Shown here in pieces: positions 1,540 through 19,952 of a stretch of 64,000 bases of DNA. Within the stretch, counting starts at the first letter, position 1, and the number at the start of each line of letters is the position of its first letter. The position numbers were made by a program, and so were the translations under genes. Location: positions 133,825-197,824 of IMG/VR virus record IMGVR_UViG_3300045988_163643; one strand, 5' to 3'. The notes under the pieces are model-generated. The model saw nothing but the letters and a program-made list of their open reading frames with translations, did no database searches and was not told the origin of the DNA. This DNA comes from a virus.

Positions 1540-2148
1540 GTGAACGAGATTGAAAAAATATATAAATTATATGTTCACATTTCCCCTAGTGGTAAAAGAT
1601 ATTATGGAATAACTTGTACTAAAGTTGAACAAAGATGGGGTTGTGATGGACAAAGATATAATAGACAACCATATTTTTGGAATGCTATACAAAAATATGG
1701 TTGGGATAATTTTGTTCATGAAGTTTTATTTGATGATTTAACAAAACATGAAGCTTGTATATTAGAACAATGTTATATTGCATTATATGATACTACTAAT
1801 AGAGAAAAGGGATATAACTGTTCTATAGGAGGAATAGAACATTCACATACTAAAGAAACAAAAGAAAAAATTAAAAAATCTATAAGTGGTGAAAATAATG
1901 GTATGTATGGTAAACATCATTCAGATGGAGCTAAAGAAAAAATGAGACAAAAAAAGAAAGATATATATTTAGGAAATAAAAATCCTAATGCTAAAAAAAT
2001 AAGATGTATTGAATTAAACAAAGTATTTGATACTGTTAAAGATGCTTTAGAATTTATTAATAGAACACGTAGTTCTCTATGTGATGCGATGAAACGTAAT
2101 GGTAAATGTGGTGGCTATCATTGGGAATACGTGGAGGAGGTGAATTAA
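1540..2148 (+). CDS. free-standing GIY-YIG homing endonuclease (I-TevI/Seg-like)
   Basis: N-terminal KLYVHISPSGKRYYGIT...R...E...N pattern, NUMOD3-like H..ETKEKI / HSDGAKEKM repeats, and a C-terminal GGYHWEY DNA-binding-type tail. Confidence 0.85.
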   Translation: MNEIEKIYKLYVHISPSGKRYYGITCTKVEQRWGCDGQRYNRQPYFWNAIQKYGWDNFVHEVLFDDLTKHEACILEQCYIALYDTTNREKGYNCSIGGIEHSHTKETKEKIKKSISGENNGMYGKHHSDGAKEKMRQKKKDIYLGNKNPNAKKIRCIELNKVFDTVKDALEFINRTRSSLCDAMKRNGKCGGYHWEYVEEVN

Positions 2149-2149
2149 T

Positions 2150-5100
2150 TTGAGTCAATTTGATATAAGAATTGGTACGCAACTAGATACTAGTAAAGCG
2201 TTACAAGAATTAATGGAATTTGTCAAAAAATATGACAATAAAGAAAAGATAAATATAGACATAGGTCAATCAAAAGGTGCTAATAATGTAAAGAATACAA
2301 CTAAAGCTATGAAAGAAATGCAAAAAATAGCTAAGGCATTAGGAAATACAAAGATTGACGTAGGTAGTAACATAGGTAAAGCAACCAATGAAGCTACTAA
2401 ATCATTAGAAAATAGCATAGACAAACAAGCAAAATCTATTGCTAAAATAACTAGTGGTGCACAAAGAGATTTAACTAAAGATGCTCAAAAGGGTATTGAA
2501 AATAGTCTTAAAGGTATTACTACAGAAATGAAAAATACCCAAAGAAATGTTGACAAGATGATTGGTACTCTTGAACGAGCTAAGAAGGTTGAGTTAATAG
2601 ACCAAAAAGGTTTAGATGAAGGATTAGCTAAATTAAAAGATATGAAAGCTAACCTTAGAATAGACAATGTTGGTGATGTAGAGAAAAAATTAGGCGAAGT
2701 AGCAAATGACTATAAAAGATTAATGTCAGATGCAACTAAAGAAGCATTTAATAATGTTGAAGTATCAGGATTATTAGAGGATTTAAAAGTTGTTAGAGAA
2801 GCTATGTCAGCTAAAAACATGGACTTAACTGGTGTTGATACTTTAATTTCTAAAGCTAAACAACTTACTTCTTTAAGTGTTGACCAAATGTTAAAACAAT
2901 ACAAAGAGTTAAGACAAGTATTTAGTAAAGAATTAAAGATACCATTAGGTTTAAATGGTGTAATGAATGCTGAAACTGCAATTAAAAATGTTTTAGATTA
3001 TAAAAACAAATTAACTGCTAAAATTTCAGTTGAAACAAATTCAGAGCAAGTAGATATTTTAAGAGATAAAATAGTAAGATGTGATGAAGTTGTTAAACAA
3101 CTTGAAGGAGACTTAAATTTAGTAGGTAGAAGTACAGCATTAAACTTAATGGAACAATCCAATGAAAGAGAATTAGATACATTAAGTGCTAAGTTAAAGA
3201 GATGTAAGAATGATTATGCTAACTTAGAAAAAGAAAGACAAAGATTAAATAGAGATAGTAGATACATTGGAACAGAAGATTTAAGTAATATAGAAAAACA
3301 ATCATTAGCTATAAAGAAAGCTCTTGATAGTTTAAATGTTGGAAATTTAAATACAGATAAAATAAATAAAGTTACTGGCGATATAAATAATTTAAGAAAA
3401 ACAATAGAATTAACTGGTAATTCAGCTAAAAAATTAGATATAGAAGCGACAGTTAAAGTAGATATGAAAACTGCTCAAGACCAATTAAATGGTATGTATT
3501 CTGCTTTAATAAAATCTAATAAATCCACTGTAATGGTTAAAAAATATAAAGATGAATTAGAAGGATTGTTTGATTTATCTAAGGCTAATCCAGGTATAGC
3601 ATTAGACAAAATAAGTGGTTTTATAGAAAAAGTAAATAAAGAAGCAAGTAATAAAGGTTTAGGCAAAATAACTGGTGGATTAGACCAATATAAACAATAT
3701 TTAAAAGATTATGAAACATTAGTTAAAAAAGCTAGTGGCACTACAGATATTGGTTTTGCAAAAGCTTACAAATCAGAAGTTACACAAATAGAAAAGGCAT
3801 TAGACCAATTAGAAAGTGGATTTAACCAAACTCAAAAATCTATGGCTAAAGCCTTGAGATTAGAATCACTTAATAAGAACACTCAAGAGTTTACTAATCA
3901 AGTTGAAAAATCTATTAAGAAAACTCAAGAATATAAAAAAGAGTTACAAACTCTTAATAAAGATGTAAATTTTGATGGTCTTACTTCTAAATTAGGTCAA
4001 AAAGTCAAAGAAGAATTTGACGGAATGATTAATAAAACTAATCAATTAGAAAAAAGACTTAATAATATGTTGTCATCTGGTAATGTAAATACTACTGAAT
4101 TATCTAAATTAAAATCAGAACTTGAAAGTACTTTTTCTGGACTTTCTAAACTTAAAGATACTAGTATAAAAATTAAAACTGATGAAACTATATCAGGACT
4201 TAATAAAATCAAAAAAGATTTAGAATCATTAGGTCAAGATACTAGTCAAATAGAAAGAGTTATTAATGCATTAAAAGAACTTAAAGCTAATTTCAATGGT
4301 GGTACAGCAGGTTATAAAGAATTAGCTAATGGAATAAAGGCTATTGGAAAAGATAATAACTTAGAAAAACTAAATAGTTCTTTAGAAAAATCAACTAAAA
4401 AATTTAATAACTTAGCTAAAGTTGTCGGAGAACTAAAAGTTAAAAATATAGGTAATATAGACCAAGGTGCTTTTCAATCTTTAGATAGTCAAGTTGCACG
4501 AATACAATCTCATATAGAAGGTTTAAATAAAAACGACATATCTTTAATAGATGTTAAAAAAGTTGAAGCAGAAGTAAATGAATTAAGCAACTGTGTAGAA
4601 AAAATGAGTAGTGAATTGACTCAGTATAGCAGATACTTAGAAGAATATAAAAGATTATCTAGTCAAGCAGGTAAAACAAACGATGTTAATTTAGCTACAA
4701 AATATCAACAAGAAGCAGAAGGTATAAAAGGTGTATTAACTCAATTAGAGAGTGAATTTACACAAGCTCAAAAATCTATTGCTCAAGGATTAAAAACCGA
4801 TGCTTTCTCTAATGCTAATGAAAAAATGTCTTCTGAAATTAATAAAACAATTAATACAGTTGATGGTCTTAAAGAAAAACTTAATACATTAGATAAAGAT
4901 GTACATTTTGAAAATATGACATCTGAATTAGGTAAAGAATTAAATAGTCAATTTAATACTTTAGCTAACAAAGGTGAAGAATTAAAAGATAAATTAAGTA
5001 AAATATTAGCATCTGATAATGTAGATATTTCTGCTTTAAGTAAAATTAAAAAAGAAATAAATGAGTTTGCAAGTGAAGTTAATAATTTAAAAAATTCTGC

Positions 5101-7265
5101 AATGGATAATGTTATTAGAGAATCTTTTGATAACATTAAAATACCTAATTTAAATAAACAACTAGAAGCAGTTAAAGATTTAATGTCACTTAAAAATATG
5201 GATACTAGTGGTATAGATGCCTTAATAGAAAGAACTAAAAAACTATCAAGCTTAAGCGTAGATAAAATAGGTCAAGAATTTAAGGAAATACAAAATGCAC
5301 TTGGTAAAGAAATTAATTTACGTTTAGGTACTAGTGGTATTAAAGATATAGAATCTGCATTAAAAGTCATATTACAATATAGAAATGAATTAAAAAATAA
5401 AATAGCAATTGAAACAGATTCATCAAAAGTAAAAGACCTTAATAGTCAATTAGAAAAAACTGAAAGCATAATAGAAAAACTTAAAGGTCAAACTAGTGGT
5501 GGACTTGGTGCAAGTTTAATTAGTGATGCCAACAATAATAACTTAAAACAATTAGAAGATACTGCTAATGGATTAAAGAAAACATTCTCTAATTTGGAAA
5601 GTGAAGTAAATAAATTAAACAACGAAGCATTGAATAAGGTTGATATAAGTCAATTAAGAGAAATGAATGAAGTTGTTAATGATGTAAAGAGAAATTTGGC
5701 ATCTATCGGAGAAGGAAATGTTAATGTTGATTCAATAAATAAAACAGCACAAGACATAGAAAAATTAAAGAGATTAATAGAAAATACTAAAAAAACAATT
5801 AGTGATATGAAATTAGAAGTTTCATTTAATATTAAATCAAATGAAGCAGAACAATATTTAGCAGGTTTTGAATCAGCTTTATTGAGGTTAGGTAAATCAA
5901 CTAGTGGAATAAATGCTTTAAAGAGTGAATTTGAAAGTATAAAAAATTCAGCTAATGGAAATTTAAGTAGTGCCATAAAAATGATTGATGACTTTATTAA
6001 TAAATTGAAACAAATGGGTAGCAAACAAGGTTTAGGTAATATAAGTGGTACTATGTCTCAGTACAAACAATATACTAGAGAATTACAACAAGCCATGAGT
6101 GGGGCGTTAAAATCTAGTGGTTCTGATACGGCTAAAGGATTCGAACAACAAGCCGAACGAATAAAAAGTGCCATAAAACGTTTAGTTTCAAGTTTCAAAG
6201 AATCACAAAGAGAATCAGCTAATGCTTTTAATGGTAGTACATTTAGTAATTTCTCTTCTAAATATGAAGCTGAAATAAACAAAGTTGAAAGAAGTATAAA
6301 TAAATTTAAATCATCAATGCAAAACTTAGATAAAGCTGTAAACTTCAAAGGTTTTCAAACTGATTTAGGAAGAGGTTTATCTGAACAATTTGACCAAATA
6401 ATGGCAAAAGCTGAACAATTAAGAGATAGACTAAAAAGTGCATTATCATCTGGTACTTTTGATATAAGTGAAATAAATAAAATAAAAGATGAATTAAAAC
6501 AAGTTGAGCAAGAGGCAGATTCATTAAAACAAAAATCTATAGTATTAAAATGTGCTGAAAGTATAACAGAATTAGAAAGACTTAGCAGTAAGATAAAAGA
6601 TATAGGTGGAGACACATCAAAAATAGAAGAATTAAAAAATAAATTTGTTACACTTGGTACAGGTATAAGAGAAGGTACTACTGGAATAGATGATGCAATT
6701 TCTAAAATGAAATCTTTATCTTCGGAAGCACAAAGAACTGCTAGTTCTTTTGAATCAACTGCTGGTAAAATAGGTTCTTTTGGTTCTAAAATACAAGGTT
6801 TCTTTAGTTCTATAAAGAATTCATTTAGTACTTTTACTATTGGTAATTTAATGGCTGATGGTATAAGCCGAGCTGTTTATGAAATAAAAGATACTATAAC
6901 AGGTTTAGATGAAGCAATGTCTGATTTTAAAAGAGTTGCTCCTGATAACTTTAGTTTAAATACATCTAATTTACAAAGTGTTGCTAACGAAGCAAGAGAA
7001 ATAGGTATTAGTGTTGGACAATCAGTAGAAGATGTTATTACTGGAATGAGTACTGCATTACAAGCAGGTGCAGGCGATATTAAAACTGCTTCTGAAATAG
7101 CAAAAAGTTCTGCAATATTCCAAAATGTTACAGATATGTCAGCAAAAAGTGCTTCAAAAGCTGTTTCTTCAATGATAAATCAATATTATGATATGGATTC
7201 AGCATTAAATCAAGTTGACCACGGTGTAGGTAAATCCGTAAAAGGATACAACAACTTAACAGAGG
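2150..7265 (+). CDS. tail tape measure protein, exon 1 of 5
   Basis: TTG start behind GGAGGTG. About 1,705 codons of coiled-coil-type sequence run into the TMP core (FKRVAPDNF...GISVGQSVEDVITGMSTALQAG). The ORF-track tail VTYSLLY* is intron read-through. Junction +/-2 nt. Confidence 0.85.
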
Positions 7266-7479
7266 TAACATACAGCCTCCTATATTAAGTAATTAGTATA
7301 GAAAATTTCTTTAATTGCTGGAAACTCCTAAAGCCTTACAAACTACAACGTAGAGTTAAAACTCAAGCGTGAATGTGGCGAAAGCAGAAAAAATTGTAAG
7401 GATTACCCAAGGTTAAATCCTAAAGGTGAATGAATGGACAATCAGCAGGTAAGATTCTAAATTAAATTATTTTAAATAT

Positions 7480-7508
7480 TTGACTTTTAATAATAAAATG
7501 AGTATAAT
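7480..7508 (+). promoter_or_regulatory. sigma-70-type promoter inside the intron, driving the endonuclease gene
   Basis: TTGACT (7480-7485), 17-nt spacer, TATAAT (7503-7508), then GAGGTG RBS and ATG 7532. Confidence 0.7.
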
Positions 7509-7531
7509 ATAAGTAAAGTGAGGTGATTAAA

Positions 7532-8428
7532 ATGGGAAGAAAATGGGATTATGAAAAAGTTAAAGAATATATAGAAAATTTTAAATATAAATTATTAAGT
7601 GAGGAATACAAAAATAATAAAATTAAATTATTAATTAAATGTGATAAAGGACATGTATTTAAATGTTCATTTCATAATTTTAAAGATAGAGACTCTAGAT
7701 GTCCGTATTGTAATGGTAAAAAAATAACATATGATATGGTCAAGTTTTACATTGAATCTTACAATTATAAATTATTAAATGAAGATTATGTTGATAATTC
7801 TACTAAATTGTTAATAGAATGCGATAAAGGGCATACGTTTAAAATGCGATGGAATAATTTTCAACAAGGGCAAAGATGTCCTATATGTGATAAAAGTCAT
7901 AAAAAGAATTATAAAGATGTAAAAATAGAATTAGAAAAAGAAGGTTATGAATTAATATCGAGCAAATATAAGAATAGTAAAGAAAAATTATTAATCATGT
8001 GTCCTAATGGTCATACATATGAAACAAGTTGGAATAATTTTCAAAGAGGAAGAAGATGTCCAATGTGTAATATAACAAAAGGAGAAAAAAAGATAAAAGA
8101 AATATTAGATAATAATAAAATAGAATATATGTATAATAAAAAATACTTTAAAGATTTAAAAGGAATAAATGGAGGATTATTAAGACCAGACTTTGTAATA
8201 CCATCATTAAGAATATGGATTGAATATGATGGTATACAACATTTTGAACCTAAAGATTTTGCTGGTAAAGGTGAAGAATGGGCTAAAAAAGAATTCGTTT
8301 TAAGAAAAATGAAAGATAAAATAAAAGATGAGTATGCTAAAGAACATGATTGGAAATTAATAAGAATACCTTATTGGGAATATGATAATATAGAAAACAT
8401 ATTAATAAAAGAATTAAATTTAAAATAA
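7532..8428 (+). CDS. intron-encoded homing endonuclease: 3 tandem Zn-ribbon modules plus Vsr/DUF559-like PD-(D/E)XK nuclease
   Basis: Three ~58-aa repeats (YKLL..EYKN...L.I.C..GH......NF..G.RCP.C) followed by GEKKIKEIL...LRPDFVIP...IEYDGIQH...IRIPYWEY. ATG 7532 is preferred over the track start at 7523 because of RBS spacing. Confidence 0.75.
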   Translation: MGRKWDYEKVKEYIENFKYKLLSEEYKNNKIKLLIKCDKGHVFKCSFHNFKDRDSRCPYCNGKKITYDMVKFYIESYNYKLLNEDYVDNSTKLLIECDKGHTFKMRWNNFQQGQRCPICDKSHKKNYKDVKIELEKEGYELISSKYKNSKEKLLIMCPNGHTYETSWNNFQRGRRCPMCNITKGEKKIKEILDNNKIEYMYNKKYFKDLKGINGGLLRPDFVIPSLRIWIEYDGIQHFEPKDFAGKGEEWAKKEFVLRKMKDKIKDEYAKEHDWKLIRIPYWEYDNIENILIKELNLK

Positions 8429-8607
8429 TTTAACAAGAATAAACTTCAACGACTAGAACGCAAGTTCGTAGGGTGTAAGCGATTGACACTCGAAATGGGA
8501 AACAATCAAAAACGGGTTGATGATATAGTCTGCTCTCATGGGAAACCATGAGCAGTTTTCATATAAAGAAAACGGATTAAGTGTAGCGAACTTAATTGAA
8601 CAAGAGG

Positions 8608-8754
8608 CAATGGACTTGGTCAATTATGCAGGCAATAATTTTGCGATTTCATCTGATGGTGTAACAGAAGCATTACAACGTGGTGGTTCTGTATTATCTA
8701 ACTATGGAGTAGATTTAAAAGATTCTATCGCAATGATAACTGGGGCAAATGAGT
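8608..8754 (+). CDS. tail tape measure protein, exon 2 of 5
   Basis: AMDLVNYAGNNFAISSDGVTEALQRGGSVLSNYGVDLKDSIAMITGANE is the hallmark TP901-type TMP core. The ORF-track N-terminus MGNHEQ...IEQE (8538-8607) is intron sequence. Confidence 0.8.
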
Positions 8755-9090
8755 TAAATATGGCTCTTTTATATAGTAATATATAATTAAATTTTCTTGA
8801 ATTGACAGGGACTCCCTTAGAGCTTTACACACTAACTTATGATAGAAATATACATAAGGGCATTGCTAACCACAATGATATAGTAAAAGAGGTAAAGATT
8901 GGGAAATCTGCATCTAAGATTCTAAGTTGTGTAAACAATATGAATAAAGTTCAACGACTAAGTATCCTAGTAGTCTAGGTAGTGGGAAACCTCCTATTGA
9001 AGGAGGAAGATATAGTCTCAACGTTTAGTGAAAGCTAAAGAAGTTCATAAGAGAACTGCGTAAGAATAACGAACTTATGTGAAGATATTG
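8755..9090 (+). mobile_element. group I intron (336 nt, no ORF)
   Basis: P1 GAGT/GCTC with U.G at 8754, TTGAATTGACAGGGACTCCCTTAGAGC core, CAACGACTA ... GATATAGTC, and terminal hairpin plus TGAAGATATTG. The U(-1)/terminal-G junction joins the exons in frame (GANE-S-LQDPARIG). Confidence 0.85.
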
Positions 9091-12000
9091 CATTACAAGA
9101 CCCCGCTCGTATAGGTAATGGGCTAAAATCTATAGCAATTAACCTTTCAGGTATTAAAACAAATGCCAAAACAGGTGCTCTTGAATTAAATAAAACAGCA
9201 AAAGCATTGCAAGAGACTGCTAAAATAGATATATTTACTGATAGTACTAAAACACAAGTTAAAGATATCGTTAGTATAATGGATGAAGTAAAAGATAAAT
9301 GGTCTTCTTTAACTGATGTTGAACAAAAAGGACTATCAGAAGCTATAGCTGGAAAAACCCAAGCCGGTGTATTCCAAGCATTAATGACAGGTTGGGAAAG
9401 AGTTCGTCAATATCAAAAAGAATACAATGAAGGTTGGATGATAGGTTCAGCTCAAAGAGAAAATGAAGTCTTTATGGACTCCATTGCTGGTAAATTTAAT
9501 ACTTTAAAAGAAAATCTTAAAGGATTATTAACTAGCAATGTTACAACAGATATGTTTAAAGGACTATTAGATGGTGCTAATAAAGTAGTAGAAGCAGTAG
9601 GAAAAATAAGTTCAAGCTTAGGTAGCATTGGTTCTGCTGGTGCATTAGTAGGTATTTCATCTTTCATAAAAACTTTATCAAATTTAGATAAAGTTAAAAC
9701 AATGGGAAGTGTATTTACTGGATTTGACAAAGTTTTAGGTGGGTTACAAGGTGCATCTGGTATTTCTGGTACAATTAGTACATTAACAGGTAGCTTTAAA
9801 GAATTAGGTGTTGGTGTAACTTTATCTAAAGTAGCATTAGGATTATTTAAAGGTGTACTAATGGGTATTGCATTTACTGCTGTTGTTGCAGGAATAAGTG
9901 CTTGTGTAAAAGCATGGAACGATTATACTCATGCAACAGAAAACGCAGTAAAGGCTTCTAAAGAAAGACAAGATGGATATAGAGATGAAGCACAAACTTT
10001 AAGTACTAAAAAATCAAGCCTACAAGAAATAGCTAAAGAATATGATAATTTAAATAATAAATCTGATAAAACTGCTGAAGATTTAACTAAATTAAATGAA
10101 TTAAAACAACAAATAGGACAAATAGCTCCTGACCTTGTTAAAGGATATGATTCAGCAGGCAATCCAATATTAAACCTTACTACTAGTATGCAGGGTTATA
10201 TAGCTGAATTAAATAAGGCAATTGCTAAACAACAAGAATTATATAACTATGAAACTAAAAAACAAGCACGAGAATATATGAAGAAAAATGACACTAAAAA
10301 TGGAGCTCAAGACCCAGAAAGAAATTCTTATGAAACTGAATTAAATAATCTTCAAAGTGCAAATGATAGAAAAACTAGAGAAGAAAAAAGATATACTGGT
10401 AGCTTAAAAAATATTATTAAAGATAGAAATAAATATAGAGAAGACCAAGAAAAAAGTATTAATGAAAGATTAGAAAGAATTAGAAATTCACAAACAGAAA
10501 TTAATAATAGAGATGCTACACTTGAAGATAATTATGTTAATGAATTTAATAAGAAAACTAAATTAGCCGAAAAAGAACAAAATAAATTTGCTACCTTTAT
10601 GAAAGGGTTAAATTGGGGTACTTATGGTGAAGCAGAAGCCAATAGAATGGCTAATGGTTTACAAAAATTATCTGAAAAGACAGCATTTACAACTCAAGAG
10701 ATGACAAAAGGATTATCAGGTAGCATGTCAAAAAAAGTTTCAGAAGAAATTTCTAAAGTAAATGCAGAATTCAAAAAAACAAATGCTATAAATGAATGGG
10801 GAAAAGGTTTAAGAAAAATAGCTAATGAAACAGGAAAATTTGATTTTTCAAATTGGAGTAATTACTTATCAGAAGTCCAAACTCGTTTTGAACAAGGAGT
10901 AAGTACTAATGAACAATATACACATTCATTAGGAATTATGGCTGATGCTATGGAAGATTTAACTGGTATAGATTCAGATGTATTCTTACCAGCTTTAAAA
11001 GGTGGAGCAGATTTAGAAGAAGCCTTTAAATCAGCAACTGAAGGTTTAAATGGTTTTATGAGTGCTTATGGTTCTTCTACTGCAAAATTACAACAAGGTG
11101 ATTCATTTGCTAAAAAATTAGAATCTCAATTTAAAGAACTTCAAAATTTTGAAACTGAATTTGAAGGTCAATATGAGATGCAAGGTAAAGTTAGTGTAGA
11201 TTGGTTAGTAGAACAAAAAGATAATGAAGATTTACCTAAACAATTAAGAACAATAATAGATGCAGTAACAAAAGATGGAGAAGTAACAGAAGTAGAAGAA
11301 AAATTAGTATTAGCTTGTGAAACAGAAATAAAAGATAAAGGTAAATTACAACAAAGTACAATAGATGCAATAAATCAAGTAATGGACGGAACTTGGGATG
11401 TAAATAAAACTATTGAAATAGGTGGTATGGAATTTACATCATCTGAAATAAAAGAATTAATGTCATTAGCTGACCAATTAGGTATATCTTTAGAAGGTTT
11501 AAATATTGGTGATACAGGATTAGACGGAGAAAACCAAAAAGCTCAAGCATTAAAAGATACAATAGATTCAATTACAGATAGAAATATAAAAGTAGCAATA
11601 GAAGCTGAAGGATTTGAAAATTCAGACCAAGTTAATAATATAATGTCAGTTGTTGACCAAATAGACGGAAAACAAGCTAAAGTTGATTTTATAGCAGATG
11701 CTTCTCAATATTTTAAGGAAAATGATAGTGTTGAATCAGCAATAAATGCTATGCCTGATGAGATAAAACTTAAATATAATATTGGTGTTGAAGGTGATGA
11801 AAGACTAGAAGGAATACAAAGTAGACTTGAAAAATTACCAAAAGATATTAGAACTATGGTATATGCTCAAACATATGGTGTTGAAAATGTTGAAATGCTA
11901 GAAAACATAGTAGATGCTTTTGGTGGAAAAACTGCAACAGCAATATTACAGTTAGATGGTATAGATGAAGCTCTTAGAAATGCTAGTACATTTGAAGAAC

Positions 12001-15000
12001 AATTAAAAATAATTGGAGATTTTATATGTCAACCTGGAGTAGAAATAGAAGGTAAAGATGACATAATTAAAACAATTGATGAAATATTAAAGAAGTTAAA
12101 AGAAACAGATGGGCAAGAAAGTAATCCTAAAATAAACGTAGAAGGAGATACTTCAGGTGCCGAGAAAGTAAAAAAAGAAGTAGATGAAGTAGGCAATAAA
12201 AAAGGGACAGCTAAAGCTGATGTAGATGGAGATACTTCAGGAGCTGAAAAAGTAGAAAAAGAAGTAGACAATGTAAATGGAAAAAAAGGTACTGCTGAAG
12301 CAAATGTGGATGGCAATACTGAAGGTGCTGAAAAAGTAGAAAAAGAAGTAGACAATGTAAATGGGAAAAAAGGTACTGCTAATGTAGATATTAAAGCAGA
12401 TACCTCTGAAGCTGAAAAAGCTAAAAAAGAAGTAGATAATTTAGCAGTCAACAAAAATGGTACAGTTACTTTATTAGTAAATGGTCAAGAAAAAATAGCT
12501 GAAGCTAAAATTAATAAAGGTCAATTAGAAGTAAATGGTCAAGCAGTTACAACTATTTCTGTTAACGGTAAAGACCAATTACCAATAGCTATTAATGAAA
12601 AAGGTCAATTAGAAGTAAATGGTCAAGCTATAACTAATATAGATGTTAATGGTAAAGACCAATTAACTTTAGCTAGAAATGAAAAAGGTCAATTAGAAGT
12701 AAATGGTCAAGCTATAACTAATATAGATGTTAATGGTAAAGACCAATTAACTTTAGCTAGAAATGAAAAAGGTCAATTAGAAGTAAATGGTCAAGCTATA
12801 ACTAATATAGATGTTAATGGTAAAGAAAAAGTTTCTGAAGCAAAAAAAGAAGTTGATGATTTAACCAAAGATAATAAAAATGTTAGTATTAATATTGATG
12901 TTTCATTAAAAGAAACTGTTGGTGAAATATTATCAAGATTTGGATTAAATAAGAAAACAGAAAATGTTGAAATTAATGTAACATGTAATGATAATGCAAC
13001 TCCAGTATTAGAAAAAATAATGGCAAGACAAGATAAAACTATACAAATAAAAGTAGATTGTCAAGATAATGCAACTTCTAAAATAAACAATATAACTAAA
13101 ATAGGAAATAAAACTGTAACAGTTACAATAAATTGTCAAGATAATGCAACTTCTAAAATAAATAGTATAGCTAGTATGGGTAATAAATCTGTAACAGTTA
13201 CTATAAATTGTCAAGACAACGCAAGTTCTACAATAAATAGAGTTACAAGTGCACCTTCTTCTAAAGCAATAAATGTTGTAGTAACTTGTACAAATGGTGG
13301 AGCAGTTCTTAATACTCTTTCTCAATTAGCTAGTAAAGTAATACCTAGTAAAAAATTTACTATAAATTGTACAGATAGTGCTAGTAGTGTAGTAAGTAGA
13401 GTTAATGGTTTAAAAATATCTGATAAGAAATTTACTATAAATTGTACAGATAATGCAACTGCTAAAATAAATAAGGTTATTAGTAAAAAAATACCAAATA
13501 AATCATTTACTATAAGTTGTAATGATAATGCTAGTGGTAAATTAAGTAGTATTATAAGTAAAATAAGTAATATTCGTAGTAAATCAGTAACAATTACTAC
13601 TAATCATGTAAGTACAGGTAAGAGTTCATCTATTGGTGAACCAACAGTTGTTGATTTACAACCTCAACCATTTAGTGCTCAAGCTTCTAATCCTCAAGTA
13701 CAATCATTAGGAGAACAAGTTCAAGTATTAAATGATAGTGTGCAACAACAAACTGACAATAACAATGAAGTTAGTGTAATGGCTAAGAAGACATATAAAG
13801 CTAATATTGATACAGGTTTAACAGTAAGTGCAGTTAAATATAATATTGATTTATTAACTAACATGACTAATATGCTTAAAAAATTAGGAACTCAAGTTGA
13901 TATATTAAAAGCTAAACAAGAAAGAACTTGGGGTACTGCAAGTGCTAAGTTACTTAGAAATCAAATTTCTTTACTAACTAAACAACAAGATTTAACTAAA
14001 ATAAATATTAAAAACATGGAAGGTATGGCTAAAAAACTTAAAGGTAGTTTACAAAAACAAGGATTTAAGTTTAAAGATGACGGAACAATAAGTAATTACA
14101 ATAGTAAACTTGTAAAAATGCAAAAAAATGTTGAAAGTTTAGAGAAAGCTGAAAAAGCACTAGAAGACCAAATAAGTAAAACTGAAAAACAAATTTCAAA
14201 ATCTGAAAAGAAATCTTCAAGTAAGAAAAAATCAACTAGTAAGAAAAAGAAAAGTACTAGTAAGAAAAAGAGTACGAGCAAAAAGAAGAAAACTTCAAGT
14301 AAAAAGAAATCAACTAAGAAAAAGAGCACTAAGAAGAAAACTACTAAGAAGAAGAGTGCTAGTAGAAGCAATAGAAAAACTACATCAAGTAAAGCTAGTA
14401 AAAAGAAGACTACTAAGAAGAAAAAATCAACTAGTAAGAAAAAGAGTACATCAACTAAGAAGAAGAGTACTAAAAAGAGTACTAAAAAGAAAACTACTTC
14501 TAAGAAGAAATCAACCACTAAGAAGAAGAGTACATCTTCAAGCAAGAAATCAAAAGCAACTAAAGCATTAGAAAAGAAAAAGAGCGGATTAGAAAAGAAA
14601 AAGGATGCAATAAGCAAACAATTAGAAAAAGCACAAAAAGAATTATCAGAAACTCAAAGCAAATTAAATGAATATTATAATTTACAATTTAGTGAAATTC
14701 CTGAAGCTCAACAACAATGGGAAGAATATGCTAATGCAATAGCTGAAGCTAAAGCAGAAATAATTAGATGTGAATTAGAAGCTAAAACATTCTTTAAGAC
14801 AATTAAGATGGAAATGAAAGATGCTATGATTAGCAGAAATGAAACTTGGGCAGATACATTTATGTTGAAGGCTGATTTAAGTAGTTGGTCTAAAGCAATA
14901 GGATATATTAAAGAAGCTAATAAATTATTAGCAAAAAATCAACAACATCAACAATCTAAATTAGAAACAGCTCAAGCAAGAGCGGAAGATAATAAAGCAT

Positions 15001-16578
15001 TTTTAAAGAAACAAGGATTTAAATTTGATAAAAATGGATATGTAACAGGTGCTGAAAAAACTTTACAAAAACTTAAAAAGAAGAAATCATCACAAGAATA
15101 CGATGCTATAAAAGAAGCATTTGATAGTTACGTTGATGATATGTATGAAAATATTCCTAAAGCTGAAAATGAATGGTGGAAATTAGAACAAGAAATAAAA
15201 GAAAATGAAAGACAAATAAAAGAAACTACTAAATCTATGAATGATTTAGTTAATTCAGCTAAAGTAGATAAATTAACTAGACAATTTGATGTACTTTCAA
15301 ATACTTTAGATATATTAGACCTTAAAATGGAACGTGCATATGGAGCTAATAAAATAGACTATATGAAACAACAACTTGATATATTATCTAATATGAAAAG
15401 TAAGAATCAAGAAATCATTAATCAAAATACTGAGTTATTAAATAATAGTAAGAAACAATTAGTTAAATATGGTGTTACATTTGATGAAGATGGTAATATA
15501 GATAATCTATCAAAAGCATTGAAAAAATTAGATAATCTACAAGATATGGAAGATTTAAAAGATTTAGCTGATGAATATAATGATTACAAAGATTCAATAG
15601 ATGATGCTAGTAAATCAATTGAAGAAGAAACTAATAAACAACTTGAATTAAAAGATTCAATGATGGAAATTAGAGAAGAAATGAGAAAACTTAGAGATGA
15701 TGCATGGGTTAAAACTTATGAAAATGGTCTAAAAGTTATTCAAAATCGTATTGATACAATAGATTCTTTATTAGATTTGGAAGATGAAAATCAATTTGGT
15801 TTACTAAATCAAAAAATTGAAGAATATAAGAATTTAACTAAAGCGACTGAGGATAGTTTGGCTTATCAAAAACATAGAAAAATCACTATGCAAAAAACAT
15901 TGATTGATTATGGTTTCACTATTAATGATGATGGTACAATAGATGGAACTGCTAATAAATTAGAACAACTTAAAAATACATTATCTGAAACTGAATTTGG
16001 TATAGTAAGTGATACATTAGAAGATTATTTTGATACTGCTTTAGATACAATTCCTGAATTAGAAAGAGAATTAATAAAATATCAAAAAGATTTAAAAGAT
16101 ATACAAAATACTAAACTAGAAAAGACTAAAACTATTGAAGAAAAAATTACTGAAATATATAATGATGAAATAGATAAAAGAACTAAAAAGATACAAGAAG
16201 AAGCAGAAACACAAACTAAAGCACTTAATAAAGCCAAAGAATCTTATCAGAGATGGAGAGACGAAGTTGACTATAAAGATGATTATAATAAACAATTAAA
16301 AACTGTTGAAGATTTACAAAAGAAAATAGAAATAGCAAAACGTGATGACAGCTTAACTGGACAAAAACGTTTAGCTGATTTGATGAAAGAATTAAAAGAA
16401 GAACAAGAAAATCTTGAAGATTTAGTTCAAGACAAAATAGATTCAGATATAAATAACATGTTTGATGACCAAATAGATAAAATAGAAGAAAATTCTGATG
16501 AAGAAGTTAAGAATTTGGAAAAAACATGGTCAGAAAGCAAAATAGCTGAAATGGTTAAACAAGCACTTGATACTGGAG
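9091..16578 (+). CDS. tail tape measure protein, exon 3 of 5
   Basis: Starts (S)LQDPARIGNGLKSIAINLSGIKTN..., continuing the TMP core. Then a hydrophobic GVGVTLSKVALGLFKGVLMGIAFTAVVAGISA segment, tandem repeats, a K/S/T-rich tract and long coiled coil. The ORF track begins only at internal M 9207. Confidence 0.85.
12135..12450 (+). repeat. in-frame tandem repeat, ~84-nt unit x ~4 (DVDGDTSGAEKVEKEVDNVNGKKGTAEA)
   Basis: Read directly from the DNA and translation of TMP exon 3. Confidence 0.85.
12510..12830 (+). repeat. in-frame tandem repeat, 84-nt unit (NEKGQLEVNGQAITNIDVNGKDQLTLAR)
   Basis: 12594-12677 and 12678-12761 are identical at the DNA level, and a third copy is truncated at about 12827. 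More diverged copies lie upstream. Confidence 0.9.
12960..13610 (+). repeat. in-frame ~75-nt repeat x ~9, one Cys per unit (INCQDNATSKINxIxxxGNKxVTVT)
   Basis: Periodic (I/V)xC(Q/T/N)DNA(T/S)... units in the TMP exon 3 translation. Confidence 0.8.
14205..14560 (+). repeat. low-complexity polybasic K/S/T tract (~120 aa) inside the TMP
   Basis: SKKKSTSKKKKSTSKKKSTSKKKKTSSKKKSTKKK... It also creates the spurious ORFs 14096..14617(-) and 14356..14571(+). Confidence 0.9.
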
Positions 16579-16925
16579 TAAATTAGCTCCTTTTACTAAG
16601 TAATTAGTATTAAAACTCATTGAATTGCTGGAACTTCCTAAAGCTAACTAAACTACAATATGGCTAGAAATGGCGAATATGAATGTGGCGAAAGCAGAAA
16701 AAATTAGTTAGATATTCATATGGTTAAATCCTAAGTGAATGTAAATGGATAATCAGCAGGGAAGTCCCTTTAAAATGGGAAACCTTCAACGACTATATAT
16801 ACTAGTAGTCTAGTTAGTGGTGAGCATCCTTATAGGATGATGATATAGTCTACTCTCATGTGAAAGCATGAGCAGTTCATAAGAGAACGGTATAAGGTTT
16901 AACGAACTTTATATGAATGTTAAGG
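16579..16925 (+). mobile_element. group I intron (347 nt, no ORF)
   Basis: P1 GGAGT/GCTCC, P2 TACTAAGTAATTAGTA, TTGAATTGCTGGAACTTCCTAAAGC, AATCAGCAGG, CAACGACTA ... GATATAGTCTAC, P9 hairpin, and tail TGAATGTTAAGG. Junction +/-1 nt (see the splice-junction finding). Confidence 0.8.
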
Positions 16926-17034
16926 TGTTTACAGATATCGATGGGAATATAAAAACTCTTCAAACAGCATTAATGGATTTTGCTAATGAAAGTTCTGATT
17001 ATTTTGGAGTTATGGGTAATGTTGCCCTAGTCGT
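16926..17034 (+). CDS. tail tape measure protein, exon 4 of 5 (109-nt micro-exon)
   Basis: This is the only open frame: (V)FTDIDGNIKTLQTALMDFANESSDYFGVMGNVALV. The other two frames hit stops. It is bounded by introns on both sides. Confidence 0.7.
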
Positions 17035-17227
17035 AGAGTAATTTGCGACTGAAAATAGATTTAATTGCAGGTAATTCCTAAAGCCTTACACCACAAGTAT
17101 TCTGAAAAGAGATACTGAAGGTACGAAAGTAGAAAAAACGTAAGGATGAATATAAGGTTAAACCCTAAGTATTCGTAATAATGGATGTTCATGCAGGTAA
17201 GATTCTAAATTAAATTATTTTAAATAT

Positions 17228-17256
17228 TTGACTTTTAATAATAAAATGAGTATAAT
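17228..17256 (+). promoter_or_regulatory. sigma-70-type promoter inside the intron
   Basis: TTGACT-N17-TATAAT, in a block nearly identical to 7455-7531. Confidence 0.7.
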
Positions 17257-17278
17257 ATAAGTAAAGCGAGGTGATTAA

Positions 17279-18607
17279 ATGGCAAAAAGAAAAAGATATA
17301 CATATCAAGATGTTAAAAATATTGTTGAAAATGAAAATTATGAATTAATAAGTACAGAAAATGAAATTATTGATGAAAAGGGATTTGTTAAAACATCAAC
17401 TAAAATAACAGTATGGTGTAAAAATGAAAATCATAATTATATAAAACCTCAATTAAGTAAGTTTCTCAAAGGGGGTAGATGTGGAAAGTGCAGAAATGAT
17501 AATAAAAAACTTGATTATAAATATGTAAAAGAATATGTTGAATCATTTGGATATAAATTATTATCAAAAGAGTATAAAAATAATTCAACGGATTTGTTAA
17601 TTGAATGTCCATTAGAACATAAGTTTAAAATGATTTTTAATAATTTTAAAAAAGGACAAAGATGTCCCAAATGTGGTGAAATAAAAAGAAGAGAAAAAAG
17701 AACGATATGGAATAAAGAAAAAATAATTAATTTTGTGAAAAATAGTAATTATGAATTTATCAAATTTGTTAAATTTGACAAATTAAACTCAAGAATATTA
17801 ATAAAATGTAATAATAAAAAACATGAGTCATATGAAGTTACTTTTGCTAATTTTAAAAATGGAAAAAGATGTCCGTACTGTTCTAATCATGTAAAATTTG
17901 ATTATAAATATGTAAAAGAATATATTGAATCATTTGGATACAAGTTATTATCAAAAGAATATAAAAATACAAATGAATATATTTTAATAAAATGCCCTGA
18001 TGAAAATCATAAACCTTATTTAGTTAAATTTTCTTCTTTTAAAAATCAAGAAACTAGATGTCCTTATTGTCAAAATAAAAAAAGAGGATTATATAGAAAG
18101 TTTGATTATAAATATGTAAAAGAATATGTTGAATCATTTGGATATAAATTGTTATCAAAAGAATATAAAAATTGTGATGAAAAACTAAAAATAGAATGTA
18201 ATAAAGGACATATTTATGAAGTATCTTTTTATTGTTTTAAAAATTTAAATACAAGATGTCCTATATGTAATGAGAGCAAGGGAGAAATAAAAATAAGAGA
18301 GATACTTAATAAATATGATATAAAATTTACTCCTCAAAAGAAATATAGTAAATTAATTGGAATTAAAGGCAGACAATTGTCTTATGATTTTTATTTACCT
18401 TTATATAACACATTGATAGAATATCAAGGAGAATATCATGATGGTACGGGATATAATCAAACTAAAGAAAAATTTGAAACCCAAAAAGAACACGATAAAA
18501 GAAAAAGAAATTACGCTAAAGACAATAACATAAAATTATTAGAAATATGGTATTATGATTTTGATAATATAGAAAATATATTAATAAAAGAATTGAATTT
18601 AAAATAA
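17279..18607 (+). CDS. intron-encoded homing endonuclease: 5 tandem Zn-ribbon modules plus Vsr/DUF559-like nuclease
   Basis: Five repeats ending in RCGKC / RCPKC / RCPYC / RCPYC / RCPIC, then GEIKIREIL...LSYDFYLP...IEYQGEYHDG...LEIWYYDFDNIENILIKELNLK. The C-terminal 14 aa match the 7532-8428 protein. Confidence 0.8.
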   Translation: MAKRKRYTYQDVKNIVENENYELISTENEIIDEKGFVKTSTKITVWCKNENHNYIKPQLSKFLKGGRCGKCRNDNKKLDYKYVKEYVESFGYKLLSKEYKNNSTDLLIECPLEHKFKMIFNNFKKGQRCPKCGEIKRREKRTIWNKEKIINFVKNSNYEFIKFVKFDKLNSRILIKCNNKKHESYEVTFANFKNGKRCPYCSNHVKFDYKYVKEYIESFGYKLLSKEYKNTNEYILIKCPDENHKPYLVKFSSFKNQETRCPYCQNKKRGLYRKFDYKYVKEYVESFGYKLLSKEYKNCDEKLKIECNKGHIYEVSFYCFKNLNTRCPICNESKGEIKIREILNKYDIKFTPQKKYSKLIGIKGRQLSYDFYLPLYNTLIEYQGEYHDGTGYNQTKEKFETQKEHDKRKRNYAKDNNIKLLEIWYYDFDNIENILIKELNLK

Positions 18608-18783
18608 TTTAACAAGAATAAACTTCAACGACTAGAACGCAAGTTCGTAGGGTGTAAGCGATTGACACTCGAAAAGGTCTACCCTTAATATTAAGGTGAA
18701 GAAATAGTCTAGTCACTCTAGGAAACTAGGTGCTTAGAATTAACTAAGGTTTATAGTGTAGCGACTATAAATAAATATTAACG

Positions 18784-19093
18784 TGATAGCTTAAAGAAAG
18801 AATTATTAGACAATCTTAATGTAGCATTGGAAACTATGAAAGAACTTCAAAAAATGTCAGATAATTATACAGCTCCTAATATAGATTATAGTAATACGGT
18901 ACTTCCAAAAGATAGTACTATTAATACTTCTCCACAAGTTTCTAGTAATGTTGAAACTAATAATATTACAATTGGAGATACAAATATTACAATTCAAGGT
19001 AGTGCAGATGATGTTACTTTAGGAAAAGTAGATGAAATGTTAAAAGATTACAAAGCAAGTATTTGTAAGGAAATTGTTAAAAATATGAAATAA
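18784..19093 (+). CDS. tail tape measure protein, exon 5 of 5
   Basis: (V)DSLKKELLDNLNVALETMKELQ...ITIGDTNITIQGSADDVTLGKVDEMLKDYKASICKEIVKNMK*. The five exons total 13,170 nt, which is 4,389 codons plus a stop, in frame. Confidence 0.8.
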
Positions 19094-19099
19094 ATTTAC

Positions 19100-19138
19100 G
19101 AAGGAAGGGTTAAAATATAACTCTTCCTTCTTATTTTA
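19100..19138 (+). terminator. rho-independent terminator overlapping the conserved leader element
   Basis: Stem GAAGGAAG / CTTCCTTC followed by TTATTTTA. Confidence 0.6.
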
Positions 19139-19169: not shown

Positions 19170-19952
19170 ATGGCAAGTAGTTTTTGGAATGGGGAATTTT
19201 ATTTTGATAATGTATATTCTGAAACTTTCAATGTTGTAATAATTGATTTTGATAGTTCGGATAGACTAAAACAAATAGGAAGTACAATTAATATAGAATT
19301 AAATGAAGAAAATACACTTAATGGAAAAAAGAGTTATATTGAAGGAACTCGCACTTCTGAAAATATAATTTTACAATTAATGAAAAAAAATGGTGATATA
19401 TGGAGTGATGGAGATATAATCAATGTATATAATTGGTTATTCCAAAAAGATTTTAAAAAATTCCAAACAGTAGATTATTCTAGTGGATATAATCTATGTT
19501 ATTATTTAAAAGCAGTAAGTTTTTCAAAATTTTTAACTCCTGATTTTAGGGGTTATTTAGAAATAGAATTTATGAGTTATGCTCCTTATTGCTATTCTAT
19601 ACCAACAAACAGACTTAGTTTGAGTGCCAATGGTCAATCAGGTGTTTTATTTAATTATAGTAATCTATATGAAACATATAAACCAAAAATTAAAATAACT
19701 GCTTCAAATAGTGATAATATTAAAATATTAAATAATACAAATGGTACTTTTGTAGAATTAAGTGGATTAAACAGTGGAGAAATAGTTACAGTAGATTGTG
19801 CTATGGGAACTGTAATAAACAGTGGTGGAGCTAATAGATTTGAAACATTAAAAAATTATAATTTATTAGAACTAGATAAAGGAAATAATAATATAACACT
19901 TACTGGAAGTGCAAATATAGAATTTATTTGCGAATTTCCTGTAATTATATAG
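19170..19952 (+). CDS. distal tail protein (Dit, Sipho_tail-like)
   Basis: 260 aa immediately after the TMP. The N-terminus ...FNGEFYFDNVYSETFNVVIIDFD and the size are typical of siphophage Dit. Confidence 0.65.
   Translation: MASSFWNGEFYFDNVYSETFNVVIIDFDSSDRLKQIGSTINIELNEENTLNGKKSYIEGTRTSENIILQLMKKNGDIWSDGDIINVYNWLFQKDFKKFQTVDYSSGYNLCYYLKAVSFSKFLTPDFRGYLEIEFMSYAPYCYSIPTNRLSLSANGQSGVLFNYSNLYETYKPKIKITASNSDNIKILNNTNGTFVELSGLNSGEIVTVDCAMGTVINSGGANRFETLKNYNLLELDKGNNNITLTGSANIEFICEFPVII

What the first reader, a model, noticed from the sequence alone, without database searches (positions are those of the whole stretch)
2150..19093. A 4,389-codon tape measure protein assembled from five exons
Exons 2150-7265, 8608-8754, 9091-16578, 16926-17034 and 18784-19093 total 13,170 nt in one frame. 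The TP901-type TMP core (…NFAISSDGVTEALQRGG…ITGANE / LQDPARIGNGLKSIA…) is split by introns 1 and 2. The C-terminal …ITIQGSADDV… end sits in exon 5.

At the usual figure of about 0.15 nm of tail per TMP residue, this predicts a tail of several hundred nm (about 650 nm). That would be at the extreme of known siphophages.
Basis: inference. Interest (0 to 1): 0.7.

Follow-up and report, generated by a model that had tools for sequence, protein, structure and literature searches.

The report
Giant intron-split phage tape measure gene
This is one very long phage tail "ruler" gene (4,383 codons) interrupted by four self-splicing group I introns, which predicts an unusually long tail (about 600-700 nm), though both intron-split and giant tape measure genes are already known.

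Summary
Window 2150-19093 encodes a single tape measure protein (TMP) in five exons separated by four group I introns. Introns 1 and 4 carry homing-endonuclease ORFs.

J1 and J2 match intron-less alleles in close IMG/VR relatives at nucleotide level. J3 matches more distant phages at protein level.

The fourth junction is wrong by 18 nt. Exon 4 ends at 17016, not 17034, so the product is 4,383 aa, not 4,389.

Splicing rebuilds a complete PF10145 domain (76.9 bits, against 28.4 for exon 2 alone). Dit and tail-tip genes follow directly.

TMP length is conserved across relatives: 4,356 aa in a 93%-identical relative and 4,376 aa in a clade only about 40-58% identical.

A tail of roughly 610-700 nm is a reasonable but untested inference. 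It would be very long but below Thermus phages P23-45/P74-26 (5,002-aa TMP, tails of 800 nm to almost 1 µm).

Group I introns in TMP genes were described in 2008 and are annotated in phiCD211, so this is a new member of a known kind.

One oddity remains: introns 1, 3 and 4 seem to splice after a G rather than the near-universal U.

The parts
2133..2140 (+). Shine-Dalgarno-like GGAGGAGG, 9 nt upstream of the TTG start at 2150
   Evidence: Sequence read. The homologous ORF in L005 starts at the equivalent codon.
2150..7265 (+). TMP exon 1 (aa 1-1705 plus 1 nt). Helical N-terminal extension built from ancient internal duplications, then the start of the PF10145 core.
   Evidence: ORF. PHROG TMP hits. 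Repeats aa 168-780 ~ 957-1555. AF2 model of aa 1-1100 is all α-helical. Homologues of 1,702-1,796 aa at 38-39% identity.
7266..8607 (+). Intron 1, group I, with an ORF inserted in the P6 loop
   Evidence: Core elements align with introns 2, 3 and the three introns at 42-43 kb. Two sub-threshold RF00028 pieces. Absent from L005, with a gapless junction.
7523..8428 (+). Intron-1 homing-endonuclease ORF. Probable ATG at 7532, 298-301 aa.
   Evidence: phrog_559 1.4e-72 and phrog_9084; Pfam DUF4379/CapR zinc-ribbon repeats. Promoter-like TTGACT-17-TATAAT at 7480-7508.
8608..8754 (+). TMP exon 2 (147 nt), the middle of the PF10145 core (NFAISSDGVTEALQRGG...ITGANE)
8755..9090 (+). Intron 2, group I, no ORF. 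Canonical U at -1 and G at the 3' end.
   Evidence: RF00028 63.2 bits (gathering score 50) in a narrow scan. Absent from L006/L007, with a gapless junction.
9091..16578 (+). TMP exon 3 (aa 1755-4250). Contains the end of the PF10145 core, a hydrophobic segment, tandem-repeat modules, a K/S/T-rich tract and a charged helical C-terminal region.
   Evidence: phrog_10871 2.5e-179. 2,141 homologues. Composition and TM-like segment aa 1993-2030.
6986..9353 (+). PF10145 PhageMin_Tail domain (aa ~1613-1842), encoded across exons 1-3 and split by introns 1 and 2
   Evidence: Spliced protein scores 76.9 bits (cutoff 33.2) over profile positions 2-201 of 201. Exon 2 alone scores 28.4 bits.
12127..13563 (+). 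In-frame tandem repeats: 84-nt (28-aa) units x3.7 and x3.9, and 75-nt (25-aa) units
   Evidence: TRF. The region is predicted β-rich at low confidence.
14206..14493 (+). K/S/T-rich low-complexity tract (about aa 3460-3590)
16579..16925 (+). Intron 3, group I, no ORF
   Evidence: RF00028 91.0 bits. Present at the same site in L005-L008. The first codon of the 3' exon varies synonymously: G|TG, G|TC, G|TA.
16926..17016 (+). TMP exon 4 (91 nt).
17017..18783 (+). Intron 4, group I, with an ORF in the P6 loop. P1 = GGG.U/GCCC at 17014-17027; the hairpin 17031-17049 is P2.
   Evidence: Aligns with the other introns. 91% identical to an ORF-less sibling in L006 that scores 59.7 bits against RF00028. 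Absent from L005-L008.
17279..18607 (+). Intron-4 homing-endonuclease ORF (442 aa), same family as the intron-1 ORF
   Evidence: phrog_559 1.8e-89. Promoter-like site at 17228-17256.
18784..19093 (+). TMP exon 5 including the stop codon (C-terminal 103 aa)
19100..19130 (+). Terminator-like hairpin (13-bp stem plus T run) just after the TMP stop codon

Best explanation
Window 2150-19093 is one tape measure gene of an uncultivated, low-G+C siphophage with an SPβ/phiCD211-like tail module. Related contigs are 173-204 kb long.

How it works. The primary transcript carries four group I introns of one IA2-like lineage. Introns 1 and 4 host homing-endonuclease genes in their P6 loops, each with its own consensus-like promoter. 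Self-splicing joins five exons into an mRNA for a 4,383-aa TMP.

Protein layout:
- about 1,550 aa of α-helical N-terminal region, made by ancient internal duplications;
- a PF10145 core;
- a Gly/Ser-rich and hydrophobic segment;
- repeat modules;
- a charged helical C-terminal part.

As in other long-tailed phages, the TMP is expected to lie inside the tail tube and set its length. The predicted tail is about 610-700 nm.

The introns are selfish mobile elements that target the two most conserved parts of the gene. They are tolerated because they splice out precisely.

Shown versus inferred. Shown: gene structure, intron identity, junctions and family membership. Inferred: splicing in vivo, the ruler function of the whole length, and the tail length.
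For: Gene structure:
- One frame with a single stop after removing four segments.

Intron identity:
- RF00028 scores above the gathering score for intron 2 (63.2 bits) and intron 3 (91.0 bits).
- An ORF-less sibling of intron 4 scores 59.7 bits and is 91% identical to it.
- An alignment of seven introns recovers P2-P9, with compensatory changes in 29 of 53 pairs.

Junctions:
- Intron-less alleles align without gaps at J1, J2 and the corrected J4 in IMG/VR relatives of 87-94% aa identity.
- J3 aligns without gaps at protein level in C. difficile phages.

TMP identity:
- PF10145 reaches 76.9 bits only after splicing.
- Dit, a minor tail protein and a tail protein lie downstream. Tail genes lie upstream. 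A distant relative (L010) has SPβ-like structural genes upstream of its TMP.

Length conservation:
- 4,383 aa here, 4,356 aa in L005 and 4,376 aa in L010 at about 40-58% identity.

Structure:
- The N-terminal 1,100 aa are predicted entirely α-helical.

Calibration:
- SPβ has a 320 nm tail (PMC8270828). Its TMP, YomI, is 2,285 aa (my own knowledge).
- P23-45 has a 5,002-aa TMP and an 800 nm tail (bioRxiv 10.1101/2022.12.01.518664).
Against: - There are no RNA, protein or EM data, so splicing and tail length are inferred.
- Introns 1 and 4 do not reach the Rfam gathering score directly, because their ORFs interrupt them.
- In introns 1, 3 and 4 the 5' exon must end in G, one nucleotide before the wobble U of P1. 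This breaks the near-universal rule that U sits at -1, so the splicing chemistry is not fully understood.
- About 540 aa (aa 2751-3290) are predicted β-rich at low confidence, and a ~130-165-aa K/S/T-rich tract follows. The 0.15 nm per residue figure may not apply to these parts.
- TMPs can be proteolytically processed.
Confidence: 0.87

Rival explanations
1. The pieces are expressed as separate proteins (a 1,712-aa 'minor tail protein', a 2,459-aa 'TMP' and small ORFs), as automatic annotation would call them. Splicing is absent or irrelevant.
For: - Each intron brings a stop codon within 2-10 codons of the 5' splice site.
- GenBank annotates phiCD211 this way, as a 541-aa 'Minor tail protein' plus a 2,176-aa 'TMP'.
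- Databases hold hundreds of 1,712-1,720-aa fragments.
Against: - Exons 2, 3, 4 and 5 have no start codon or ribosome-binding site at their 5' ends.
- The PF10145 domain would be cut into three non-functional parts.
- Relatives carry the same sequence uninterrupted at each of J1, J2 and J4.
- L010 has aa 1797-4376 as one ORF.
- The intervening segments are group I ribozymes.
Confidence: 0.04
2. The gene is spliced into one 4,383-aa protein, but not all of it acts as a ruler. The duplicated N-terminal ~1,300 aa, the β-rich repeats or the K/S/T tract may be removed, folded or used for another purpose. P23-45 is a precedent, since its TMP N-terminus is an RNA polymerase. The tail would then be much shorter than 650 nm, for example 350-500 nm.
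For: - phiCD211-type relatives lack about 1,200 aa of the N-terminal region. phrog_13137 positions 75-482 align only with aa 1293-1705.
- The middle repeats are predicted β-rich, not helical.
- The P23-45 precedent (bioRxiv 10.1101/2022.12.01.518664).
Against: - The N-terminal extension has no enzymatic domain and is all-helical.
- It is a duplication of the TMP's own N-terminal helical segment.
- Total length is held within 0.6% between clades that are only about 40-58% identical (4,383, 4,376 and 4,356 aa). That is what selection on a ruler predicts.
Confidence: 0.2
3. One or more introns, especially those with G at -1, splice poorly or imprecisely. The locus would then yield mostly truncated or frameshifted TMP, as in a decaying or defective phage.
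For: - Non-canonical 5' splice sites at introns 1, 3 and 4.
- Introns 1 and 4 do not reach the Rfam threshold.
Against: - The same intron 3 sits at the same site in all four close relatives that cover this site (L005-L008). The first codon of the 3' exon varies only synonymously, and the downstream exons are 93% identical in frame.
- L005 assembled with the same junction rules gives an intact 4,356-aa ORF.
- The exon-1 protein cluster has 365 members from many samples. This points to a thriving phage lineage.
Confidence: 0.06

Closest known systems
Group I introns in TMP genes of Bacillus cereus-group prophages (TMP-IVS1/2/3; Tourasse & Kolstø 2008, PMC2504315)
   Same: - IA-type group I introns, some carrying homing-endonuclease genes, inserted at several sites in a Firmicute phage TMP gene.
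- Presence or absence varies between related phages.
- Related introns have adapted their P1 to different sites.
- Introns also occur in a neighbouring tail gene.
   Different: - There the TMPs are just over 1,200 aa, with at most two introns per gene over three sites.
- Here one 4,383-aa gene carries four introns. At least 11 insertion sites are seen across five related genomes.
- Several introns here have G rather than U at -1.
TMP of Clostridioides difficile phages phiCD211/phiCDIF1296T and relatives (LN681537, CP011970, MF547663, CP069348)
   Same: - Closest named relatives, at 30-37% aa identity.
- Large siphophages of about 131 kb, described as having 'intriguingly long tails' (PMC9784644).
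- The TMP core is interrupted by an annotated Intron_gpI.
- The C-terminal region is homologous.
   Different: - Their TMP is about 2,700 aa from the annotated pieces (541 + 2,176 aa). They lack about 1,200 aa of the duplicated N-terminal region.
- Their introns sit at other codons: after ESVQN, and after NYAG in pCD1602_4.
- There are no introns at J3 or J4.
Giant TMP of Thermus phages P23-45/P74-26
   Same: A TMP of several thousand residues that sets an extraordinarily long siphophage tail. P23-45 has a 5,002-aa TMP and an 800 nm tail, and P74-26 a tail of almost 1 µm (bioRxiv 10.1101/2022.12.01.518664; PMC10034513).
   Different: - No sequence relationship was found.
- That TMP is longer, and its N-terminal part is an RNA polymerase.
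- No introns in that gene were mentioned in the abstract and passages I read.
- The hosts are Gram-negative thermophiles.
SPβ YomI tape measure protein
   Same: - Homologous core, about 23% identity over 93% of a 755-aa query.
- The distant relative L010 has SPβ-like structural genes (YonD, YomX, YomW, YomV, YomU, YomN) upstream of its TMP.
- SPβ's 320 nm tail gives about 0.14 nm per residue.
   Different: - YomI is 2,285 aa and uninterrupted.
- It is annotated as a putative/lytic transglycosylase in several GenBank records. No such domain was found here.

Membership tests
Tape measure protein (PF10145 PhageMin_Tail / TP901-type) | PF10145 domain above the Pfam gathering score | tested here: met
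   The spliced protein scores 76.9 bits against a cutoff of 33.2, over profile positions 2-201 of 201. Before splicing, exon 2 alone scores 28.4 bits.
Tape measure protein (PF10145 PhageMin_Tail / TP901-type) | Position in the tail module, between tube/chaperone genes and Dit/Tal | tested here: met
   Dit (PF22768, DUF6558) lies at 19170-19952 and a minor tail protein at 19964-21649. Two small ORFs lie upstream; their positional counterpart in L010 hits YomN. A frameshifted chaperone pair was not examined.
Tape measure protein (PF10145 PhageMin_Tail / TP901-type) | Long, mostly α-helical protein with a Gly-rich/hydrophobic segment after the core | tested here: met
   aa 1-1100 are predicted all helix. 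A TM-like segment lies at aa 1993-2030. However, aa 2751-3290 are predicted β-rich at low confidence.
Tape measure protein (PF10145 PhageMin_Tail / TP901-type) | Protein length determines tail length | not testable with these tools
   Only indirect support: length is conserved at 4,383, 4,356 and 4,376 aa across diverged relatives.
Group I intron (Rfam RF00028) | Covariance-model score at or above the gathering score (50 bits) | tested here: inconclusive
   Met for intron 2 (63.2 bits) and intron 3 (91.0 bits). Intron 1 gives only 23.8 + 16.5 bits in two pieces around its ORF. Intron 4 gives no direct hit, but its 91%-identical ORF-less sibling scores 59.7 bits.
Group I intron (Rfam RF00028) | Conserved P3-P9 core supported by covariation | tested here: met
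   In the alignment of seven introns (with the ORFs removed from introns 1 and 4), P2, P3, P4, P5, P6, P8 and P9 are recovered. 29 of 53 pairs show compensatory changes. The P7 strands GACUA/UAGUC are conserved.
Group I intron (Rfam RF00028) | Terminal guanosine (ωG) at the 3' splice site | tested here: met
   All four introns end in G at the junction that the intron-less alleles require.
Group I intron (Rfam RF00028) | U at -1 forming the U·G wobble pair at the 5' splice site | tested here: not met
   Met only in intron 2. In intron 1 the -1 nucleotide is G (intron-less L005 reads GAAGCG, ours GAGG|CA). Introns 3 and 4 are formally ambiguous because a U follows at both boundaries. The sibling of intron 4 at aa 4178 is unambiguously G|U. 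The wobble U is the first intron nucleotide.
Group I intron (Rfam RF00028) | Precise excision restores the host ORF; intron-less alleles exist | tested here: met
Group I intron (Rfam RF00028) | GTP-dependent self-splicing | not testable with these tools
   Needs in vitro transcription and splicing, or cDNA.
Intron-encoded homing endonuclease | Nuclease-family ORF in a peripheral loop of the intron, with variable presence of intron and ORF among relatives | tested here: met
   phrog_559, phrog_9084 and phrog_7140 hits. Both ORFs sit in the P6 loop. The same intron types occur with and without an ORF in relatives, for example 357 nt versus 1,501 nt at J3. Nuclease activity was not tested.

The most novel reading that the evidence does not exclude
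This phage lineage carries a family of group I introns that splice after a G. The cleavage-site pair would be G-C, and the conserved wobble U would be the first intron nucleotide rather than the last exon nucleotide.

The sites showing this are TMP codons 1705, 4137, 4178, 4250 and 4280, plus a phosphatase-like gene at 42570|42571. That would be a natural exception to the rule that U·G selects the 5' splice site. It sits in a gene family so intron-dense that one relative appears to have seven introns and a 13-nt micro-exon in its TMP gene.
Probability: 0.5. Interest if true: 0.6.

Novelty: new member of a known kind. Interest (0 to 1): 0.5.

Why it matters
It adds a second, unrelated lineage of siphophages with TMPs above 4,000 residues, found in mesophilic, probably clostridial hosts. 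Conserved TMP length across diverged relatives suggests very long tails are selected for.

It shows how such a TMP grew: by internal duplication of an approximately 790-aa helical block and by 25-28-aa tandem repeats.

It is a practical warning for annotation. Gene callers and whole-contig Rfam scans cut this gene into 'minor tail protein', 'hypothetical' and 'TMP' pieces. TMP-length-based predictions of tail length or morphotype would therefore be badly wrong.

The dense, polymorphic intron load and the apparent G(-1) splice sites make the locus a good natural system for studying intron homing and 5' splice-site choice.

Tried and rejected
1. Alternative J1 (5' splice site after U7266, 3' splice site after G8581, supported by a 4-bp P10, adding VVANLIEQE). 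The extra sequence also belongs to a 3' tail conserved in all seven introns.

2. Rejected because it adds 18 nt (6 aa) relative to eight intron-less homologues. GUCGU...GCGAC is P2, not P1.

3. Canonical 'U at -1' readings for introns 1, 3 and 4 and the 42571 intron. These require introns ending in C, U or A, or give a stop codon (GGG UAA at the aa 4178 sibling site) or a frameshift.

4. Whole-window Rfam scans, at the gathering threshold and at E<=10 over 12.5 kb. They missed all four TMP introns. Only narrow scans found introns 2 and 3.

5. Megablast against 50,697 phage records found no close relative.

6. A scan of GTDB species genomes found no relative, so the host remains unknown.

7. 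A PDB sequence search with the core found nothing.

8. No lysozyme or peptidase domain was found in the TMP.

9. Garneau et al. 2018 (the phiCD211 paper, PMC5772226) is not in the held library. No measured tail length for phiCD211 could be cited.

Full report
**Observation**

The region lies in a low-G+C (about 27%) phage tail module. Two very long + strand ORFs dominate it: 2150-7288 (1,712 aa) and 9207-16586 (2,459 aa). Around them sit short ORFs and two ORFs of 301 and 442 aa.

So the arithmetic is correct.

PHROG tape measure profiles run on from one segment to the next:
- phrog_13137 ends at position 482 in exon 1 and resumes at 482 in exon 2.
- phrog_4211 covers 410-703, then 715-760, then 765 onwards in exons 1-3.
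- phrog_10871 covers 1921-1953 in exon 4 and 1954-2053 in exon 5.

**What the gaps are**

All four gaps are group I introns of one lineage. Whole-window Rfam scans missed them. Narrow scans give RF00028 at 63.2 bits for 8745-9040 and 91.0 bits for 16570-16872, against a gathering score of 50.

Introns 1 and 4 are interrupted by ORFs inserted in the P6 loop. Intron 1 yields only two sub-threshold pieces and intron 4 none.

With the ORFs removed, both align along their whole length with introns 2 and 3 and with three further introns at 42113-43347. A consensus fold recovers P2, P3, P4, P5, P6, P8, P9 and a conserved 3' tail hairpin, with compensatory changes in 29 of 53 pairs.

An ORF-less sibling of intron 4 in a related contig scores 59.7 bits. 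It is 91% identical to intron 4 from the first intron base onwards.

The two intron ORFs belong to PHROG 559/9084 (annotated as HNH or homing endonuclease) and carry CapR/DUF4379 zinc-ribbon repeats. Each is preceded by the best promoter-like match in the 18-kb region, TTGACT-17-TATAAT.

**Junctions**

Relatives provide intron-less alleles.
- IMG/VR contigs of 173-204 kb (L005-L008) carry the same gene at 87-94% aa identity, with a different set of introns.
- The spliced J1 (7265|8608) aligns without gaps to intron-less L005.
- The spliced J2 (8754|9091) aligns without gaps to intron-less L006/L007.
- J3 (16578|16926) has an intron in every close relative. It is validated without gaps at protein level by four C. 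difficile phage loci (L001-L004) that have no intron there. The first codon of the 3' exon also varies only synonymously (G|TG, G|TC, G|TA) among relatives.

17034|18784 inserts 18 nt relative to L005-L008 and 6 aa relative to the C. difficile phages. 17016|18784 aligns without gaps, 82/90 nt.

Structurally, GGGU/GCCC at 17014-17027 is P1, with a 6-nt loop as in intron 3.

The corrected gene is 13,152 nt and encodes 4,383 aa.

**Identity as a TMP**

After splicing, the core scores 76.9 bits against PF10145 (cutoff 33.2) over the entire profile, spanning J1 and J2. Exon 2 alone scores 28.4 bits and exons 1 and 3 do not hit.

Downstream lie Dit (19170-19952), a minor tail protein and a large tail protein. 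Upstream lie a structural-protein exon and two small ORFs. In the distant relative L010, the ORF in the corresponding position just upstream of the TMP hits YomN, and the genes further upstream are SPβ-like (YonD, YonB, YomX, YomW, YomV, YomU).

The start is TTG 2150, behind GGAGGAGG.

**Anatomy of the protein**

- aa 1 to about 1555 is K/L/E/N-rich. It contains an ancient duplication: aa 168-780 resembles aa 957-1555 at 30-36% identity, with a sub-repeat at aa 506-700, 818-1020 and 1293-1491.
- An AlphaFold model of aa 1-1100, built on nine sequences, is entirely α-helical with mean pLDDT 69.8.
- The PF10145 core follows at aa ~1613-1842.
- Next comes a Gly/Ser-rich stretch with a TM-like segment at aa 1993-2030.
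- Tandem 28-aa and 25-aa repeats follow. They are predicted β-rich at low confidence.
- A K/S/T-rich tract of roughly 130-165 aa comes next, then a charged region with a weak ~150-aa periodicity.
- No enzymatic domain was found.

**Relatives and length**

The closest named phages are the ~131-kb C. difficile siphophages phiCD211/phiCDIF1296T at 30-37% identity. GenBank annotates their TMP as a 541-aa 'Minor tail protein', an Intron_gpI and a 2,176-aa 'TMP'.

Among 2,141 homologues of the region aa 1755-2754, the longest single ORFs in the best 150 are 3,287, 3,071 and 2,928 aa.

The ~1,700-aa N-terminal part is shared by a second clade at 38-39% identity. In L010, the TMP is 1,796 aa, then one endonuclease-bearing intron after NYAG, then 2,580 aa. 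The total is 4,376 aa.

L005 assembled with my junction rules gives 4,356 aa in six exons. Total length is therefore held within 0.6% while sequence has diverged to about 40-58% identity. That fits selection on a ruler.

**Tail length**

- At 0.15 nm per residue the prediction is 657 nm.
- SPβ (320 nm tail, PMC8270828; YomI 2,285 aa, my own knowledge) gives 0.14 nm per residue, so 614 nm.
- P23-45 (800 nm, 5,002 aa; bioRxiv 10.1101/2022.12.01.518664) gives 0.16 nm per residue, so 701 nm.

This is inference. The non-helical parts and possible processing add uncertainty. It would be among the longest known tails but below P23-45 (800 nm) and P74-26, described as the longest known tail at almost 1 µm (PMC10034513).

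**What is known already**

Group I introns at three sites in TMP genes of B. cereus-group prophages, with up to two per gene, were described in 2008. Introns in tail tube and terminase genes were reported in the same paper (PMC2504315). Introns in capsid and tail genes of Cluster J mycobacteriophages are spliced in late expression (PMC3706429).

The kind is therefore known. What is new is the combination and scale:
- four introns in one 4,383-aa gene;
- at least 11 insertion sites across five related genomes (codons 1705, ~1710, 1714, 1754, 1767, 1842, 1878, 4137, 4178, 4250, 4280);
- the sites cluster in the two most conserved parts of the gene.

**Unexplained point**

The intron-less alleles and the reading frame force the 5' exon to end in G at introns 1, 3 and 4. 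The U that pairs with the guide-sequence G is then the first intron base.

The case is unambiguous at J1 and at the aa 4178 sibling of intron 4. There, a U-exonic reading gives GGG UAA. It also holds for the 42571-42935 intron, where only G|AU gives the conserved GD of metallophosphatase motif II.

Intron 2 and several introns in relatives are canonical. [quoted passage not shown]

**Verdict**

The finding is real and correctly interpreted, with one boundary error. It is a striking but not unprecedented example, so moderate interest.

Noticed in passing
window 1-418: The window opens inside another group I intron of the same lineage. It shows P7, P9 and the conserved 3' tail, ending ...tgtagaatataagg at about 160. 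An exon of a virion structural protein (phrog_2729) follows, with its stop at about 416-418. So the tail gene upstream of the TMP is also intron-split.
   Followed up: partly
window 1540-2148: A free-standing GIY-YIG/NUMOD3 homing-endonuclease gene (phrog_314) sits exactly between the 141-aa ORF and the TMP start. It is absent from relative L005, where the TMP starts 35 nt after the homologous ORF. Its 3' end supplies the GGAGGAGG ribosome-binding site of the TMP.
   Followed up: partly
window 40740-44361 (introns 42123-42446, 42571-42935, 43034-43347): A calcineurin-like metallophosphatase domain (PF00149, 36.3 bits after splicing), fused to a tail-associated N-terminal part, is split by three group I introns within about 1.2 kb. 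Relatives keep introns at the same sites.
   Followed up: partly
window 7265|7266, 16578|16579, 17016|17017, 42570|42571; L006 18203-18204, 19717-19718: 5' splice sites follow G, not U. The wobble U of P1 is the first intron nucleotide. All seven complete introns in the window can be read as starting with UAA.
   Followed up: partly
L006 7771-8509: This relative appears to carry two adjacent introns separated by a 13-nt micro-exon (AAATTACGCTGGT, encoding the NYAG codons). That gives seven introns and eight exons in its TMP gene. Whether the first of these two introns is a group I intron was not verified.
   Followed up: partly
window 7480-7508 and 17228-17256: The two best σ70-type promoter matches in 18 kb (TTGACT-17-TATAAT, 11 of 12) lie in homologous positions inside introns 1 and 4, about 20 nt upstream of the endonuclease ORFs. 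This suggests the endonucleases are expressed independently of the late TMP transcript.
   Followed up: no
window 19100-19130: A strong terminator-like hairpin (13-bp stem plus T run) lies between the TMP stop codon and the Dit gene.
   Followed up: no
window 12503-12826: An 84-nt (28-aa) repeat occurs in 3.9 copies at 92% nucleotide identity, so the duplication is recent. At 0.15 nm per residue, 28 aa is about 4.2 nm, which by my recollection is close to one tail-tube ring. This is consistent with stepwise tail-length change.
   Followed up: no
window 8745-9040 and 16570-16872: Method note. Rfam cmscan at the gathering threshold on the whole 64-kb window, and at E<=10 on 12.5 kb, missed two introns that score 63 and 91 bits when scanned in ~400-nt windows. 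Filter loss can hide group I introns that carry large P5 insertions.
   Followed up: yes
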